Positions 1 to 9,289 of a stretch of DNA of 12,358 nucleotides are shown here, piece by piece; the stretch's first letter is position 1, and every line of letters starts with the position of its first letter. The stretch is from NCBI GenBank assembly GCA_028275885.1, contig JAPWTW010000010.1, forward strand, positions 1-12,358, given 5' to 3'. The notes beneath the pieces are model-generated. The model worked only from the letters and a program-made list of their open reading frames with translations, was not told the origin of the DNA and did not search any database. Origin of the DNA: Candidatus Nanopusillus sp. Its GTDB lineage: Archaea; Nanobdellota; Nanobdellia; Nanobdellales; Nanobdellaceae. The position numbers were made by a program, and so were the translations under genes.

Positions 1-78
1 GCAATAATAGAACCTGGTGAAGGAAAGCAAATTATGGATGAAATAGTAAAGGCACTTAATACGTTGCTAAAGAAATAA
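1..78 (+). CDS. 3' end of an unidentified CDS (partial, enters from upstream)
   Basis: Frame 1 is open from base 1 and reads AIIEPGEGKQIMDEIVKALNTLLKK before TAA at 76-78. A T7 run follows. I recognise no family. Confidence 0.35.
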   Translation, partial: AIIEPGEGKQIMDEIVKALNTLLKK

Positions 79-2737: not shown

Positions 2738-5020
2738 ATGGTATATATAAAGTGGCTTAATGAATTATCTAAAGATGATAGGAATATTGTTGGTGGAAAA
2801 GCTGCAAATTTGGGAGAAATGATAAAAATGGGAATTCCAGTTCCCCCAGGATTTGCAATAACAATAGATGGCTATTGGAGATTTGTAGAATATAATGGAA
2901 TAGGAAATAAAATAGAAGAAATATTAAAATCAATTGACGTAAATAATATAGCTCAATTAAGGAAAGCAGCTAATCAAATACAAGAATTATTTATGAAAGG
3001 AAATATTCCAGATGACTTAAAGAATGAAATATTAGAAAACTATAGAAAATTATCTAGTATGTTTGGAAATGAACCAATATTTGTTGCTGTAAGATCTTCA
3101 GCAACTACAGAAGATTTGCCAAATGCCTCTTTTGCAGGTCAGCAGGCTACATATTTAAATGTAAAAGGCGAAGATAAATTATTGGATGCTGTTAAAAAAT
3201 GTTGGGCATCTCTATGGACTGCGAGAGTAATTAATTATAGAGCAATGATGGGAATTGATCAAAATAAAATAGCCTTAAGTGTTGTAGTACAAAAACAAGT
3301 ATTTTCAAAGAAATCTGGTGTTATGTTTACTGCAGATCCTGTTAAAAATGATTTATCAAAAATAGTAATTGAATCTTCTTGGGGATTGGGTGAAGCAATT
3401 GTTTCTGGAGCAGTAATACCAGATGAATATGTTGTAGATAAGAATACATTAAATATATTAGAAGTAAAAATAAATGAAAAGAAAGTTATGACAGCATATG
3501 ATCCAGATTCTCTTACAAAGGAAGTAGAAGTTCCAAATGAATTAAAGAATGCTAGAGTATTATCTGATGATGAAATAAGAACTTTAGCGAATTATGGAAA
3601 AATATTGGAACAACATTATGGAAAACCACAAGATATAGAATATGCAATTGATGATACTGGTATATATATTGTACAAACAAGAGATATAACAACAATTAAG
3701 AAAACGAAGAAAGAAGAATTAGAAATAAAAAGTGAAAAAATATTATTAAGGGGTATTGCTGCATCTCCTGGTGTTGGTACTGGAAAAGTAAAAATAATAT
3801 TATCTCCAGAAGAATTTGATAAATTTGAAGAAGGGGATGTATTAGTTACTGTAATGACAAATCCAGATTTTGAACCATTAATGGCAAAGGCTTCTGCAAT
3901 AGTTACAGATGAAGGTGGACATTTATCACATGCTGCAATTGTTTCAAGAGAACTTGGTAAACCTGCTGTTGTTGGAACAAAAGATGCAACTAAAATATTA
4001 AAAGATGGAATGGTTATAACTGTAGATGGAACACATGGTATTGTATATGAAGGAGAAGTAAAATTGGGAGAATTAACTAAAAAAGAAGTTGCAAGGAAAA
4101 TAATAAAATCTACACCATTAGAAATTACAGCTACAAAAATCATGGCAATTGCCGATTATCCAGAAACTGTAAGTAAAGTAAAAGATTTAGTAGATGGAAT
4201 AGGATTATTAAGGTTGGAGTTCTTAGTATTAAGAAATAGAAAACATCCAAGATGGTATTTAGATAATAATAAGTTAGATGAATTTACGAATATGTTAGTA
4301 GAAAGATTAGAAGAAATATTAAGAATTATGTATCCAAAGCCAGTAATAGTTAGGACATTGGATATGAGGACTGATGAATATAGAAATTTAGAAGGAGGAG
4401 AAAAAGAACCAAAAGAAGCAAATCCAATGATGGGATGGCATGGTATCAGGAGAGATTTAGATCAAGAACAATTATTTAGAGCTCAGATAAGAGCTTTTAA
4501 AATATTAATAAAAGAAAGAGGATTGAATAATTTATGGATAATGTTGCCATTTGTAATATCATGGGAAGAAGTATATAGAGCAAAAGAAATAATTAAAAGT
4601 GAGGGATTAATACCTGGAAAGGATATAAAGTTCGGAATAATGATAGAAACACCTGCCGCTGCATTAACAATTGAAGATATAATTAAGAATGCTGGTATAG
4701 ACTTTGTATCTTTTGGAACAAACGATTTGACTCAATTAACGTTAGGAGTAGATAGAAATAATGAAATGGTACAAAAACTAATGGATGAAGGGCATCCTGC
4801 AGTTGTTAAATTAATATCAAGGGTAATAAAAGTATGTAAAAAATATGGGGTATATACATCATTATGTGGACAAGCAGGATCTAGACCTGATTATGCAGAA
4901 TTATTGGTAAAACTTGGTATAGATTCTATCTCAGTAAATGTGGATGCAATAGAATTAGTAAGGGAAACTGTAGCAAGGATGGAGAAAAAACTTTTATTAG
5001 ATAAAATAAGAAAATTATAA
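2738..5020 (+). CDS. ppsA: phosphoenolpyruvate synthase (pyruvate, water dikinase)
   Basis: 760 aa. The N-terminus WLNELSKDDRNIVGGKAANLGEM is an ATP-grasp start. The phosphohistidine swivel motif is TDEGGHLSHAAIVSRELGKPAVVG. The C-terminal PEP-utilising TIM barrel has FVSFGTNDLTQLTLGVDR and SLCGQAGS. The length fits PpsA rather than PPDK. Confidence 0.95.
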   Translation: MVYIKWLNELSKDDRNIVGGKAANLGEMIKMGIPVPPGFAITIDGYWRFVEYNGIGNKIEEILKSIDVNNIAQLRKAANQIQELFMKGNIPDDLKNEILENYRKLSSMFGNEPIFVAVRSSATTEDLPNASFAGQQATYLNVKGEDKLLDAVKKCWASLWTARVINYRAMMGIDQNKIALSVVVQKQVFSKKSGVMFTADPVKNDLSKIVIESSWGLGEAIVSGAVIPDEYVVDKNTLNILEVKINEKKVMTAYDPDSLTKEVEVPNELKNARVLSDDEIRTLANYGKILEQHYGKPQDIEYAIDDTGIYIVQTRDITTIKKTKKEELEIKSEKILLRGIAASPGVGTGKVKIILSPEEFDKFEEGDVLVTVMTNPDFEPLMAKASAIVTDEGGHLSHAAIVSRELGKPAVVGTKDATKILKDGMVITVDGTHGIVYEGEVKLGELTKKEVARKIIKSTPLEITATKIMAIADYPETVSKVKDLVDGIGLLRLEFLVLRNRKHPRWYLDNNKLDEFTNMLVERLEEILRIMYPKPVIVRTLDMRTDEYRNLEGGEKEPKEANPMMGWHGIRRDLDQEQLFRAQIRAFKILIKERGLNNLWIMLPFVISWEEVYRAKEIIKSEGLIPGKDIKFGIMIETPAAALTIEDIIKNAGIDFVSFGTNDLTQLTLGVDRNNEMVQKLMDEGHPAVVKLISRVIKVCKKYGVYTSLCGQAGSRPDYAELLVKLGIDSISVNVDAIELVRETVARMEKKLLLDKIRKL

Positions 5021-5812: not shown

Positions 5813-5820
5813 TTTTAAAA
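5813..5820 (+). promoter_or_regulatory. TATA-like box (TTTTAAAA) for the mini-ORF
   Basis: Its first base is 31 nt upstream of the ATG at 5844. It starts immediately after the stop at 5810-5812. Confidence 0.4.
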
Positions 5821-5843
5821 TTTTTTTCATTTAATGAATTATA

Positions 5844-5969
5844 ATGGTATTCAAGAACTATAATGTTAAAATAAGAAAAGTTAAAGAATCAAGAAAATTT
5901 ATGAGACCACCTTTTTGGGCAGTAATTAAAAAATTTGGTAGAATAATTTCACCTTATAGATTAAAATAA
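5844..5969 (+). CDS. rpl39e: possible ribosomal protein eL39 (L39e), short form; ORF absent from the supplied track
   Basis: 41 codons: MVFKNYNVKIRKVKESRKFMRPPFWAVIKKFGRIISPYRLK. It is very basic. The core P-x-W-x-V-x-K-x-x-G-R-x(3,4)-P resembles archaeal L39e (..PIWIVLKTRGRVRYNP..). A TATA box sits at the standard distance. The C-terminus is shorter than typical L39e. Confidence 0.45.
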   Translation: MVFKNYNVKIRKVKESRKFMRPPFWAVIKKFGRIISPYRLK

Positions 5970-6998
5970 TTATACATTGGGTTCAACATTTTTTATTATA
6001 GGATCTATATCCATTCCTTGTCTTCTATTTTTTATTAATACAACTCTTGAATCAATATCTTCTTTAAATATTTCATAGCCAGGCAATTTTTCTACTAATC
6101 CTTTTGCAAAATTTCTTATATCTTCCATACTTGGAACATTTTCAAATTTTAATCTTGATCTTGAATATCCTAAGAATGAATAAGATTTTACTTCTACAAA
6201 ATGAGGATTATATATTTCAATTAATTTTGCCCATTCATCAAAATATTTTGGATCATCATTTATTCCCTTAATTAATGTTATTCTTGCAACTCTTCTTGTT
6301 TTCATTTTTGATGCAATTTCTAATGACTTTAGAAATCTTTCCCAATAATCTTTATATAAAGGTACAGATATTTTTTTATACATTTCTTTATTTGGAGCTG
6401 TAAATGATATATATAATTGTGTTGGTAATGCATTCTTTTCAATTAATCTTTCCAATGCTTCTGGAACTTGTCCAGATGTTACTATAAATATTGATTTTAT
6501 CCATGGCCAATTTTTCTTAATATATAATATACTCTCTGCAACATATGGGTATAACAATGGTTCTCCCGATAATGAAAATGTAACATGTGTTGGTTTATCA
6601 ATAAATTTATCTAATAATTCTTTATTTGCCTTTAGATTTCCATAATATCCAATTAATAATTTCTTTCTTAATTCTCTTAATTTTTCCATTATTTCTTCAG
6701 GTTTATCTACTTTATCTTCCGGTAGTATATCATAATAAGGTTCAAATTTTGTATTTGGTCTCCAGCAAAATATGCATCTATTTGTGCACCAAACAACAGA
6801 TTGTGTCATTTCCATACATCCTGCAGTATCTATCCCATAGAATTTATTTTTATAACATGTTCTTCCATTTATGATTGATTCTTTTGTCCAATGACAAATT
6901 TCGACAGCAGAATGATTATAAATTCCATATCCAGCTTTCTCTAATTGTTTTAAAGTCTTTAAATCATGTATCTTCCATTTTTCAATATTTTCATTCAT
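5970..6998 (-). CDS. taw1: S-adenosyl-L-methionine-dependent tRNA 4-demethylwyosine synthase (Taw1/TYW1, radical SAM)
   Basis: 342 aa. The radical-SAM cluster motif is CTNRCIFCWRP. Upstream Cys residues (EICHW, GRTCYKNKFYG, AGCMEM) are positioned for the auxiliary 4Fe-4S cluster. The motifs LSGEPLLYPY, QLYISF and VEVKSY are typical of archaeal Taw1. Confidence 0.9.
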   Translation of the reverse strand: MNENIEKWKIHDLKTLKQLEKAGYGIYNHSAVEICHWTKESIINGRTCYKNKFYGIDTAGCMEMTQSVVWCTNRCIFCWRPNTKFEPYYDILPEDKVDKPEEIMEKLRELRKKLLIGYYGNLKANKELLDKFIDKPTHVTFSLSGEPLLYPYVAESILYIKKNWPWIKSIFIVTSGQVPEALERLIEKNALPTQLYISFTAPNKEMYKKISVPLYKDYWERFLKSLEIASKMKTRRVARITLIKGINDDPKYFDEWAKLIEIYNPHFVEVKSYSFLGYSRSRLKFENVPSMEDIRNFAKGLVEKLPGYEIFKEDIDSRVVLIKNRRQGMDIDPIIKNVEPNV

Positions 6999-7021: not shown

Positions 7022-7029
7022 ATTATAAA
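7022..7029 (-). promoter_or_regulatory. TATA box (TTTATAAT on minus strand) for taw1
   Basis: The reverse complement of attataaa reads TTTATAAT. Its first base (7029) is 31 nt upstream of the A of the taw1 ATG (6998). Confidence 0.45.
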
Positions 7030-7033
7030 TCTA

Positions 7034-7082
7034 TCAGCGAACTTGGCATTCATCATTTATCAGCTGAGAAGGCTTTCCTCAC
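7034..7082 (-). ncRNA. C/D-box sRNA candidate (2'-O-methylation guide), core from C box to D box
   Basis: The minus strand reads 5'-atctgg GTGAGGA aagccttctcag CTGA taa ATGATGA atgccaagttcg CTGA tagat-3'. The C box (7082-7076) has one mismatch to RUGAUGA. A 12-nt guide occupies 7075-7064 and D' occupies 7063-7060. After a 3-nt loop, a perfect C' box (7056-7050) is followed by a 12-nt guide (7049-7038) and the D box (7037-7034). The flanks atct/agat can form a 4-bp terminal stem. The element is a local GC island. Confidence 0.6.
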
Positions 7083-7467
7083 CCAGATAATTATATATCC
7101 TAAAGGATTTTATTTCATAATTTTTAAAATATTTCTTAATTAATTCTTCCAATTTTTCTTTATTTAAGTTTTCTCCACTACACCATGCAGCATCTATATC
7201 TATATAAATTCCATCCTCTTCAGTATAGCTACTTATTACTATATGAGATGTTGTTAAAATTCCAATAAATGTTATATCCTTATTTCCTTCAAAATCTGCT
7301 GGAAATAAATAAATTTTATGATATAATAATCTACTATTTAAAATTTTTGCAAGATCATTGGAAAATTCTCTAATAATATATATAAAACTCTCATTTTTAT
7401 TTATCTTTACTATTGCTATTAATCTTTTTATATCTTTAACAGATATTCTTTTATATTCTTTATTCAT
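7060..7467 (-). CDS. S-adenosylmethionine decarboxylase (SpeH/class 1b AdoMetDC)-like protein, divergent at processing residues
   Basis: 135 aa. The core ITFIGILTTSHIVISSYTEEDGIYIDIDAAWCSGEN aligns by eye to the archaeal/bacterial AdoMetDC core [33 protein letters not shown]. The Ser, the Cys and GE are kept. The Glu before the Ser is Thr, and the processing His is Ser. Confidence 0.45.
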   Translation of the reverse strand: MNKEYKRISVKDIKRLIAIVKINKNESFIYIIREFSNDLAKILNSRLLYHKIYLFPADFEGNKDITFIGILTTSHIVISSYTEEDGIYIDIDAAWCSGENLNKEKLEELIKKYFKNYEIKSFRIYNYLGEESLLS

Positions 7468-7516: not shown

Positions 7517-7589
7517 AGCCCCGTCGTCTAGTGGCCTAGGATTCAGGGCTCTGGTCCCTGAGACCGGGGTTCGAATCCCCGCGGGGCTA
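7517..7589 (+). tRNA. tRNA-Gln (anticodon CUG), no encoded CCA
   Basis: Manual cloverleaf: AGCCCCG TC GTCT AGTGGCCTA GGAT T CAGGG CTCTGGT CCCTG AGAC CGGGG TTCGAAT CCCCG CGGGGCT A. The anticodon is at 7551-7553. A1:U72 and A73 are typical of archaeal tRNA-Gln. The stems are almost all G:C. Confidence 0.92.
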
Positions 7590-7591
7590 CT

Positions 7592-9217: not shown

Positions 9218-9289
9218 AGGCCCGTAGTCTAGTGGTATGATGCCGGACTCACTATCCGGAGGTCCCGGGTTCAAATCCCGGCGGGCCTA
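9218..9289 (+). tRNA. tRNA-Val (anticodon CAC), no encoded CCA, unusual U37
   Basis: Manual cloverleaf: AGGCCCG TA GTCT AGTGGTA TGAT G CCGGA CTCACTA TCCGG AGGTC CCGGG TTCAAAT CCCGG CGGGCCT A. The anticodon is at 9250-9252 and the discriminator is A73. Position 37 (9253) is T, and the first pair is A1:U72. Confidence 0.85.

What the first reader, a model, noticed from the sequence alone, without database searches (positions are those of the whole stretch)
7029..7088. Textbook-architecture C/D-box sRNA lying across the stop codon of the SpeH-like gene and abutting the taw1 promoter
On the minus strand the order is C box GTGAGGA, a 12-nt guide, D' CTGA, a 3-nt loop, C' ATGATGA, a 12-nt guide and D CTGA, with atct/agat flanks that can pair. 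This is the canonical archaeal double-guide layout with the characteristic 12-nt spacers.

The single deviation is in the C box, where U5 is G. That is the position that forms the non-Watson-Crick U-U pair in the k-turn. The sheared G-A positions are intact.

The upstream CDS stop codon TGA is part of the D' box, and the first guide also encodes the last residues (E-S-L-L-S). This stretch is therefore under dual constraint. The 3' flank touches the taw1 TATA box (7022-7029). The element is also a clear G+C island in AT-rich DNA.

By the N+5 rule the predicted targets are 5'-CUGAGAAGGCUU-3' (2'-O-methyl on the fifth nt, G) and 5'-CGAACUUGGCAU-3' (on the fifth nt, C).
Basis: partly seen in the sequence, partly recalled or inferred. 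Interest (0 to 1): 0.75.

Follow-up and report, generated by a model that had tools for sequence, protein, structure and literature searches.

The report
Conserved nanoarchaeal C/D box guide RNA
This is very probably a genuine small methylation-guide RNA (C/D box sRNA) of a Nanopusillus-like nanoarchaeon that lies across the stop codon of one gene and against the promoter of the next; it is a new member of a well-known RNA class, so it is not a surprise.

Summary
On the minus strand, 7082-7034 reads C box GUGAGGA, a 12-nt guide, D' CUGA, UAA, C' AUGAUGA, a 12-nt guide and D CUGA. The TGA of the D' box is the stop codon of an AdoMet_dc-like ORF.

- **Not chance:** a relaxed version of the pattern hit once in 3000 dinucleotide shuffles of the window.
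- **Source:** the window comes from a Nanopusillus-like nanoarchaeon.
- **Conservation:** the element sits at the same junction in eight further nanoarchaeal genomes or contigs. In one (L083) the ORF stops inside the C box, so both guides are non-coding there, yet the D' guide is unchanged.
- **Codon use:** in the window the overlapped codons (AGC CTT CTC AGC) are among the rarest in this 25% G+C DNA.
- **C-box deviation:** it is lineage-typical. N. equitans sRNAs pair UGAAGA with CAGA, and UGAGGA C boxes occur in Ignicoccus and Methanopyrus sRNAs.
- **D guide target:** the D guide falls in the same register as the D' guide of M. maripaludis sR105, on 23S rRNA GGGAAN*UCGGCA (about E. coli C1670).
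- **D' guide target:** unresolved.

I could not obtain the organism's own rRNA, so the targets are not verified. Verdict: a real C/D box sRNA, a new member of a known kind, of modest interest.

The parts
7084..7088 (-). 5' flank AUCUG, the 5' strand of the terminal (K-turn C) stem
   Evidence: Pairs in register with 7033-7029. 85% of cells are paired across 8 sequences, against 10-50% when the partner is slid. One pair occurs as C-G, U-A and A-U.
7076..7082 (-). C box GUGAGGA (variant of RUGAUGA, G at position 5)
   Evidence: Relatives have GUGAAGA or AUGAAGA. In L083 the UGA of this box is the stop codon of the ORF.
7064..7075 (-). D' guide AAGCCUUCUCAG; it also encodes ...E-S-L-L-S
   Evidence: The first 11 nt are invariant in all 9 genomes or contigs, including L083 where they are non-coding. 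The codons AGC, CTT, CTC, AGC are rare in this genome (3.4%, 7.6%, 0.8%, 3.4%).
7060..7063 (-). D' box CUGA; its UGA (7062-7060) is the stop codon of the AdoMet_dc-like ORF
7057..7059 (-). UAA linker between D' and C'
   Evidence: The linker is ACAG in L083.
7050..7056 (-). C' box AUGAUGA
   Evidence: Invariant in all homologues.
7038..7049 (-). D guide AUGCCAAGUUCG
   Evidence: The core UGCCRAGU is conserved. The L083 variant AUGCCGAGUUCU forms 11 consecutive pairs (10 Watson-Crick and one G-U) with the 23S sequences of P. calidifontis and S. acidocaldarius at GGAACUCGGCA. It is in the same register as the D' guide of M. maripaludis sR105.
7034..7037 (-). D box CUGA
   Evidence: It is CAGA in YN1 and L006, where the C box is UGAAGA.
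7029..7033 (-). 3' flank UAGAU, the 3' strand of the terminal stem
7023..7028 (-). TTATAA, the probable TATA box (box A) of taw1
   Evidence: It lies exactly 30 nt upstream of the taw1 ATG in 7 of 8 genomes, while its distance from the D box varies (1, 5 or 9 nt).
7060..7467 (-). AdoMet_dc-like (SpeH-like) ORF, 135 aa, whose last 7-9 codons run through the C box and D' guide
5970..6998 (-). taw1 (Radical_SAM plus Wyosine_form) ORF directly downstream

Best explanation
The element is a functional archaeal box C/D sRNA gene of about 50-60 nt on the minus strand of a Nanopusillus-like nanoarchaeon.

Inferred assembly: the C/D and C'/D' motifs each fold into a K-turn that binds L7Ae, and then recruit Nop5 and fibrillarin.

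Inferred action: each 12-nt guide pairs with a target RNA, and the nucleotide opposite the fifth guide position upstream of D or D' receives a 2'-O-methyl group.

D guide (indirect evidence): its most likely target is the conserved 23S rRNA domain IV sequence GGGAAC*UCGGCAAA, about E. coli C1670.

D' guide (unresolved): its target is not identified. The nearest candidates are two GAGAAG sites that flank the D target. If one of them is the target, this is a 'double guide' sRNA acting on one rRNA region.

Biogenesis (inferred): the RNA is probably released by processing from the 3' end of the AdoMet_dc-like mRNA, or from a read-through transcript into taw1. The UGA inside its boxes is used as that gene's stop codon, so the protein's last residues are dictated by the guide sequence and not the reverse.
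For: - **Layout:** the complete, symmetric box layout with 12-nt spacers is present. A relaxed form was seen once in 3000 shuffles.
- **Rfam:** the only hits here are sub-threshold hits to archaeal C/D families.
- **Source organism:** nanoarchaeal. The protein matches are 88-93% identical and two carry the NCBI name Candidatus Nanopusillus.
- **Conservation:** the element is at the same AdoMet_dc/taw1 junction in N. acidilobi 7A, three other Nanopusillus MAGs, Nanobsidianus stetteri, strain YN1 and two metagenome contigs. The boxes and the D' guide stay invariant while protein identity falls to 64%.
- **L083:** the ORF ends at the C-box UGA, so both guides are non-coding, yet the element is kept.
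- **Codon use:** the overlapped codons are very rare in this genome, with a joint probability of 2e-8 under its codon usage.
- **Terminal stem:** the K-turn C-stem is kept with one compensatory pair.
- **Box variants:** they follow the C5/D2 pattern of RNA-seq-verified N. equitans sRNAs.
- **L7Ae:** its gene lies 7 kb away; the window's first 78 nt encode its C-terminus.
- **D guide target:** the L083 guide forms 11 consecutive pairs with crenarchaeal 23S at GGAACUCGGCA. The D' guide of M. maripaludis sR105 (GUGCCGACUUCA, then CUGA) sits in the same register on the same nucleotide. N. equitans sRNA21, P. calidifontis sR38, T. tenax sR151 and I. hospitalis sR169 target a position 2 nt away.
Against: - There are no expression data.
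- No Rfam family reaches its gathering score.
- The organism's own rRNA and tRNA set could not be retrieved, so a match of 9 nt or more is not shown for the window's own guides.
- If the 23S keeps the C found in every archaeon of the Dennis alignment, the window's D guide has an A-C mismatch at guide position 7, and the YN1/L006 guides have one at position 3.
- A metagenome scan for GAACTTGGCAW, a 17-30 nt gap, then GAGAAGGCTT found 10 contigs; Rfam found no RNA family on any of them and their G+C (44-63%) is unlike nanoarchaeal DNA.
- The D' guide matches the available archaeal 23S sequences over only 7 contiguous nt.
- In Pyrobaculum, 61% of guides that overlap ORF 3' ends in sense have no target.
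Confidence: 0.88

Rival explanations
1. It is a real C/D box sRNA but effectively a single guide. Only the D guide directs methylation (23S, about C1670). The D' guide is an orphan, kept for another reason such as RNP assembly, weak chaperone-type pairing or processing of the host mRNA.
For: The D' guide has only 7-nt matches to the available archaeal 23S sequences. No sRNA in the seven-species set of Dennis et al. carries a CCUUCUC-type guide. Most guides that overlap ORF 3' ends in sense are orphans in Pyrobaculum.
Against: The D' guide is the most conserved part of the element: 11 of 12 nt are invariant in all lineages, including L083 where it is non-coding. It is also written in very rare codons. 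Both facts argue for strong sequence-specific selection of the kind a target imposes.
Confidence: 0.3
2. One or both guides target tRNA and not rRNA. For example, CUGAGAAGGCUU could be the anticodon loop plus 3' stem strand of a tRNA-Leu(GAG), and ACUYGGCA could be a D-loop.
For: This is inference from sequence only. CUGAGAA fits the anticodon-loop consensus (Y32-U33-NNN-R37), and A-N-Y-Y-G-G-N-A fits the D-loop consensus. Archaeal C/D sRNAs are known to target tRNAs.
Against: None of the tRNAs in the fetched loci (Gln, Val, Arg) matches either guide. The N+5 nucleotides would fall at tRNA positions 36 and 15 or 16, which to my knowledge are not known 2'-O-methyl sites. The D guide has a documented rRNA counterpart in the same register.
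Confidence: 0.12
3. It is not a trans-acting guide but a cis-acting L7Ae-binding K-turn pair in the 3' end of the AdoMet_dc-like mRNA, beside the taw1 promoter. It would control termination, mRNA stability or taw1 expression.
For: It lies across the stop codon and 5 nt from the taw1 TATA box. L7Ae-mRNA regulation has been proposed in archaea (title of PMC5539422, listed; the paper was not read).
Against: A cis K-turn does not need two 12-nt spacers of conserved sequence, a perfect C'/D' pair or the exact double-guide geometry. The D guide follows a known rRNA target register.
Confidence: 0.05
4. It is a chance resemblance in a coding or intergenic junction.
For: None beyond the lack of expression data.
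Against: One hit in 3000 shuffles. Conserved in nine genomes or contigs. Rare codons.
Confidence: 0.01

Closest known systems
Nanoarchaeum equitans C/D box sRNAs (26 RNAs verified by RNA-seq; Randau 2012, PMC3491384)
   Same: Same phylum. Same compact layout, with guides of about 12 nt and a 3-nt D'-C' linker. Same box variants (UGAAGA C box paired with CAGA D box). [quoted passage not shown]
   Different: None of the 26 has these guide sequences, so this is not an orthologue of a described N. equitans sRNA. The GUGAGGA/CUGA (G/U) combination of the window does not occur among the 25 N. equitans sRNAs I parsed. N. equitans sRNA ends are described as not base-paired, whereas here a 5-bp terminal stem is conserved.
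Methanococcus maripaludis sR105 ('M5'), D' guide GUGCCGACUUCA (Dennis et al. 2015, PMC4644070)
   Same: The guide is in the same register on the same 23S segment (GGGAAN*UCGGCA) and selects the same nucleotide column, about E. coli 1670. 9 of 12 guide positions are identical to the L083 variant.
   Different: It is the D' guide there and the D guide here. The partner guide and the genomic context differ, and the phylum differs, so convergence or guide shuffling is as likely as common descent.
[quoted passage not shown] 2018, PMC6009581)
   Same: The D' guide region overlaps the end of an ORF on the same strand. The overlap is conserved in part of the family and dynamic in others.
   Different: In Pyrobaculum the coding function is said usually to override the guide. 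Here the rare codons and the L083 arrangement indicate that the RNA sequence dictates the protein tail.
Rfam archaeal C/D families sR5 (RF01304), snoPyro_CD (RF00095) and sR7 (RF01310)
   Same: Box positions and spacing align over the full model length.
   Different: The scores (24.4, 21.7 and 17.9 bits) are well below the gathering thresholds (40, 45 and 37). The similarity lies in the boxes only.

Membership tests
Archaeal box C/D sRNA (L7Ae-Nop5-fibrillarin guide RNA) | C box (RUGAUGA) near the 5' end and D box (CUGA) near the 3' end | tested here: met
   GUGAGGA at 7082-7076 and CUGA at 7037-7034. The G at position 5 is a natural variant: UGAGGA C boxes occur in RNA-seq-derived I. hospitalis and M. 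kandleri sRNAs. This position co-varies with D-box position 2 in N. equitans.
Archaeal box C/D sRNA (L7Ae-Nop5-fibrillarin guide RNA) | Internal D' and C' boxes with guides of about 12 nt and a short D'-C' linker (symmetric double-guide layout) | tested here: met
   CUGA, then UAA, then AUGAUGA, with 12-nt spacers on both sides. Seen once in 3000 shuffles.
Archaeal box C/D sRNA (L7Ae-Nop5-fibrillarin guide RNA) | Ability to form a K-turn: tandem sheared G-A pairs flanked by a Watson-Crick C-stem | tested here: met
   The GA dinucleotides are intact in all four boxes. The 5-bp flank stem abuts the boxes in the correct register and is 85% paired across 8 sequences, with one compensatory pair. 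This is sequence-level evidence only; no structure probing was done.
Archaeal box C/D sRNA (L7Ae-Nop5-fibrillarin guide RNA) | Guide complementarity of 9 nt or more to rRNA or tRNA of the same organism, positioned for N+5 methylation | tested here: inconclusive
   The organism's rRNA was not retrievable. Indirect evidence: the L083 D guide forms 11 consecutive pairs (10 Watson-Crick plus one G-U) with crenarchaeal 23S. The window's D guide pairs at 9 of 10 core positions unless the rRNA carries a C-to-U change. The D' guide has 7-nt cores only.
Archaeal box C/D sRNA (L7Ae-Nop5-fibrillarin guide RNA) | Boxes and guides conserved in related genomes independently of the protein-coding context | tested here: met
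   Nine genomes or contigs carry it. In L083 both guides are non-coding. The overlapped codons are rare.
Archaeal box C/D sRNA (L7Ae-Nop5-fibrillarin guide RNA) | Expressed as a discrete RNA of about 50-70 nt bound by L7Ae, Nop5 and fibrillarin | not testable with these tools
   No transcriptome is available. The L7Ae gene is present 7 kb away. I did not look for Nop5 or fibrillarin.
Any curated Rfam C/D family | Score at or above the family's gathering threshold | tested here: not met
   The best hit is sR5 at 24.4 bits against 40. Nothing reaches the gathering score.

The most novel reading that the evidence does not exclude
The sRNA may be more than a passenger in the mRNA 3' end.
- Its box UGAs serve as alternative stop codons: the D' box in most lineages and the C box in L083. 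The last 7-9 residues of the AdoMet_dc-like protein are therefore a by-product of a guide RNA.
- L7Ae/RNP assembly on the nascent transcript at the stop codon, 5 nt from the taw1 TATA box, could couple three processes: sRNA excision, termination or decay of the upstream mRNA, and expression of the tRNA-modification gene taw1.
- A related novel point would be a lineage-specific co-evolution between the D guide (G to A at guide position 7) and a C-to-U change at an otherwise invariant 23S position.
Probability: 0.12. Interest if true: 0.5.

Novelty: new member of a known kind. Interest (0 to 1): 0.3.

Why it matters
It adds a well-supported C/D box guide RNA to Nanopusillus and its relatives. 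I found no paper in the searched library that describes such RNAs for this lineage.

It is also a clean natural example of an RNA gene overprinting the end of a protein gene. The rare codons, and the relative whose ORF stops in the C box, show that here the guide sequence wins over codon choice.

The family also documents a series G-U, A-U and A-A at the K-turn position that is normally U-U. This could interest people who study K-turn folding.

None of this changes how C/D sRNAs are understood.

Tried and rejected
1. **Genome-contig scan** with AAGCCTTCTCAN{5,35}TGCCRAGT, meant to find both targets side by side in 23S. The pattern has the same order as the sRNA itself, so among the matches I read (the nanoarchaeal ones and four other archaeal contigs) it returned sRNA loci and chance matches.
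2. **Metagenome-contig scan** with GAACTTGGCAWN{17,30}GAGAAGGCTT. It gave 10 contigs with no Rfam family on them and G+C of 44-63%. The arrangement with the D' target upstream of the D target was never scanned.
3. **Rfam scan of all fetched nanoarchaeal loci for rRNA.** It found only tRNAs.
4. **Reaching rRNA genes through spurious ORFs.** I searched with a translation of N. equitans 23S; nothing was found.
5. **Two viral-contig scans.** Both returned nothing.
6. **Synonymous-site test on the ORF tail.** It was uninformative: codon identity among identical residues is already 0.65-0.76 everywhere in this AT-rich genome. I replaced it with the codon-rarity argument.
7. **Ordinary Watson-Crick folding.** It gave no signal (z = -0.12), as expected for a C/D sRNA.
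8. **Internal promoter.** An invariant stretch upstream of the C box (AAAAATTATGAAATAAAATC, with TTTAAA at 7128-7123) might be the sRNA's own promoter. It also encodes the conserved KYFKNYEIKS in preferred codons, so I do not claim it.
9. **Complementarity to the tRNAs in the loci.** None was found.

Full report
**1. The observation**

The minus strand of the window reads 5'-aucug-g-GUGAGGA-AAGCCUUCUCAG-CUGA-UAA-AUGAUGA-AUGCCAAGUUCG-CUGA-uagau-3'. The coordinates are:
- C box 7082-7076
- D' guide 7075-7064
- D' box 7063-7060
- linker 7059-7057
- C' box 7056-7050
- D guide 7049-7038
- D box 7037-7034
- flanks 7088-7084 and 7033-7029

The ORF 7467..7060 ends GEESLLS*, and its TGA is the last three bases of the D' box. 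Pfam assigns it to AdoMet_dc (E 1.9e-6). It assigns the next ORF, 6998..5970, to Radical_SAM plus Wyosine_form, that is Taw1.

The core element is 45% G+C in a window of 25%.

A relaxed regular expression for the whole layout was [AG]TGA[ATG]GA, 10-14 nt, C[TA]GA, 2-8 nt, [AG]TGA[ATG]GA, 10-14 nt, C[TA]GA. It matches once in the window and once in 3000 dinucleotide-preserving shuffles; a strict version matches none of the shuffles. A still looser scan found no other match in about 90 kb of related nanoarchaeal DNA.

**2. Source organism and homologues**

The AdoMet_dc-like protein has 34 homologues. A source names three of them: two Candidatus Nanopusillus (about 90% identical) and 'Nanoarchaeota archaeon YN1' (64%).

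Fetching the encoding contigs, together with a pattern scan that happened to pick up the sRNA itself, gave the same junction in:
- N. acidilobi 7A (L125) and an N. acidilobi MAG (L001)
- Nanopusillus MAGs DS.bin.8 (L012), RHS.bin.5 (L122) and CTOTU25739 (L083)
- Nanobsidianus stetteri Nst1 (L060)
- strain YN1 (L004/L031)
- two metagenome contigs (L002, L006)

In all of them the element lies between the AdoMet_dc-like gene and taw1.
- The C' box, the D' box and the first 11 nt of the D' guide are invariant.
- The D guide keeps the core UGCCRAGU and varies at both ends: guide positions 1-3, next to the D box, and position 12.
- The spacer after the D box varies in length and sequence.

**3. The conservation is not due to the protein**

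Three observations support this.
- In L083 the ORF is 126 aa and stops at the UGA inside the C box (uuc uua UGA AGA...). The whole remainder of the element is therefore non-coding there, yet it is kept, including AAGCCUUCUCA.
- In the window the overlapped codons AGC-CTT-CTC-AGC account for 3.4%, 7.6%, 0.8% and 3.4% of Ser or Leu codons in the window's ORFs. For the seven tail codons (GGT to AGC) the joint probability under this codon usage is 2e-8.
- Half of the element (linker, C' box, D guide, D box) is non-coding in every genome.

A direct synonymous-site comparison had no power, because codon identity is high everywhere in this AT-rich genome. The protein tail therefore looks like a by-product of reading through the RNA gene until a box UGA comes into frame.

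**4. Structure**

There is no significant Watson-Crick fold (z = -0.12), which is usual for C/D sRNAs.

The five flank pairs that would form the K-turn C-stem directly against the C and D boxes are 85% paired across eight sequences. The figure is 10-50% when the 3' partner is slid. One pair occurs as C-G, U-A and A-U.

**5. The C-box 'deviation'**

I parsed 25 of the 26 RNA-seq-verified N. equitans sRNAs (PMC3491384, supplement 2).
- C-box position 5 and D-box position 2 are U/U in 15, A/A in 8 and A/U in 2.
- CAGA D boxes occur only with UGAAGA C boxes.
- The present family shows A/A (YN1, L006), A/U (L060, L122, L083) and G/U (window, L001/L125, L012).
- UGAGGA C boxes also appear in the I. 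hospitalis and M. kandleri sRNA lists of PMC4644070.

So the variant is lineage-typical and affects the K-turn position that is normally the U-U pair. This last point rests on established K-turn knowledge, not on a test made here.

**6. Targets**

I could not obtain the organism's rRNA.
- The fetched loci hold only tRNAs.
- A search for spurious ORFs inside rRNA genes failed.

The indirect evidence comes from the 23S alignment of seven archaea in PMC4644070. The consensus there reads ...AGGGAAcUCGGCAAAUUgGCcCcGUAaCUUCGGgAGAAGGgGUGCC...

*D guide.* The L083 D guide AUGCCGAGUUCU forms 11 consecutive pairs (10 Watson-Crick and one G-U) with GGAACUCGGCA. This segment is a documented target region.
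- N. equitans sRNA21, P. calidifontis sR38, T. tenax sR151 and I. hospitalis sR169 all carry UUUGCCGAGUG-type guides (UUUGCCGAUUA in N. equitans sRNA21), aimed 2 nt downstream.
- The D' guide of M. maripaludis sR105, GUGCCGACUUCA followed by CUGA, lies in exactly the register of the present D guide. It selects the same column: G in M. maripaludis and C in the crenarchaeal sequences.
- By E. coli numbering this is about C1670. The position was checked on an E. coli 23S. The 6-nt offset to canonical numbering rests on my recollection of m6A1618.

The window's own D guide has A where L083 has G, at guide position 7. It therefore needs a C-to-U change in the rRNA or tolerates an A-C mismatch. The YN1 and L006 guides similarly differ at position 3.

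*D' guide.* It matches only 7 contiguous nt at two places that flank the D target:
- GGUGAG*AAGCC, 38 nt upstream
- GGGAG*AAGG, 29 nt downstream

Either site would make this a 'double guide' sRNA in the sense of Dennis et al. (two targets within 100 nt). Neither reaches 9 bp in the sequences available.

A metagenome scan for the downstream arrangement with exact matches found 10 contigs with no rRNA (no Rfam family) on them. tRNA targets remain possible. None of the Gln, Val or Arg tRNAs in the loci match.

**7. Context and biogenesis**

TTATAA at 7028-7023 lies exactly 30 nt before the taw1 ATG in seven of eight genomes, while the gap from the D box to this hexamer is 1, 5 or 9 nt. This fits a taw1 core promoter giving a leaderless or short-leader mRNA. 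N. equitans box A sits 26-27 nt upstream of transcription starts.

No oligo-T terminator separates the sRNA from this promoter. The most economical inference is that the sRNA is cut out of the AdoMet_dc mRNA 3' end or out of a read-through transcript. This is the route proposed for most N. equitans sRNAs, which lack recognisable promoters and overlap mRNAs. A promoter of its own inside the ORF cannot be excluded.

The window's first 78 nt encode the C-terminus of L7Ae.

**8. Comparison and verdict**

This is the same kind of object as the N. equitans C/D sRNAs. Its genomic arrangement matches the 'sense overlap with an ORF 3' end' category described for Pyrobaculum.

It belongs to no curated Rfam family, and none of the 26 N. 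equitans sRNAs shares its guides. I found no paper in the library that describes Nanopusillus C/D sRNAs.

It is therefore a new member of a known kind.
- Confidence that it is a functional C/D box sRNA: about 0.88.
- Confidence that the D guide targets the 23S GGGAAC*UCGGCA site: about 0.6.
- The D' target is open.
- Interest is modest (0.3).

Noticed in passing
window 1-78 (+): The window starts inside the L7Ae gene. Frame 1 reads AIIEPGEGKQIMDEIVKALNTLLKK*, which matches the C-terminus of the Pfam Ribosomal_L7Ae protein in L001 (15746-16138). The K-turn-binding protein of C/D RNPs is thus encoded about 7 kb from the sRNA, and this synteny is kept in L001, L004 and L006.
   Followed up: partly
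L083 1775-2155 (-) and 1729-1778 (-): In Nanopusillus sp. CTOTU25739 the AdoMet_dc-like ORF is 9 codons shorter and uses the UGA of the sRNA's C box as its stop codon. The other lineages read on to the UGA of the D' box. The two stop codons are therefore supplied by different boxes of the same RNA gene.
   Followed up: yes
window 3949-3960 (+), inside the PEP-utilising enzyme ORF 2738-5020: AGAACTTGGTAA can form 10 consecutive pairs (9 Watson-Crick and one G-U) with the D guide. The same 12-mer is present in L001, L012, L060 and L122. It is probably chance plus coding conservation (GAA CTT GGT), but it is an mRNA site complementary to the guide.
   Followed up: no
N. equitans sRNA list (PMC3491384, supplement 2), not in the window: Among 25 parsed N. 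equitans sRNAs, a D box CAGA occurs only with a C box UGAAGA (8 of 8), and a D' box CAGA only with a C' box UGAAGA (4 of 4). This is an A-A for U-U covariation at one K-turn position. I did not see it commented on in the passages of the paper that I read.
   Followed up: partly
window ~5813-5969; L001 9721-9846, L004 11507-11632, L006 5795-5923: A small ORF of 41-42 aa is called directly after the end of taw1, on the opposite strand, in all related loci. It has no Pfam hit. I did not check whether it is a real conserved small protein.
   Followed up: no
window 7106-7134 (-): A 29-nt stretch, AAATATTTTAAAAATTATGAAATAAAATC, lies 24-52 nt upstream of the C box. It is identical in the five N. acidilobi-clade genomes and differs at only 2 positions in YN1 and L006, despite 64% protein identity. 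It contains TTTAAA, the N. equitans box A motif. It could be an internal promoter for the sRNA, but it also encodes the conserved KYFKNYEIKS in preferred codons.
   Followed up: partly
window 7517-7590 (+) and 9218-9289 (+): tRNA-Gln(CUG) and tRNA-Val(CAC) genes. They are G+C-rich islands like the sRNA. tRNA-Gln lies 50 nt upstream of the AdoMet_dc-like gene and is transcribed divergently from it. This arrangement is conserved in the relatives.
   Followed up: no
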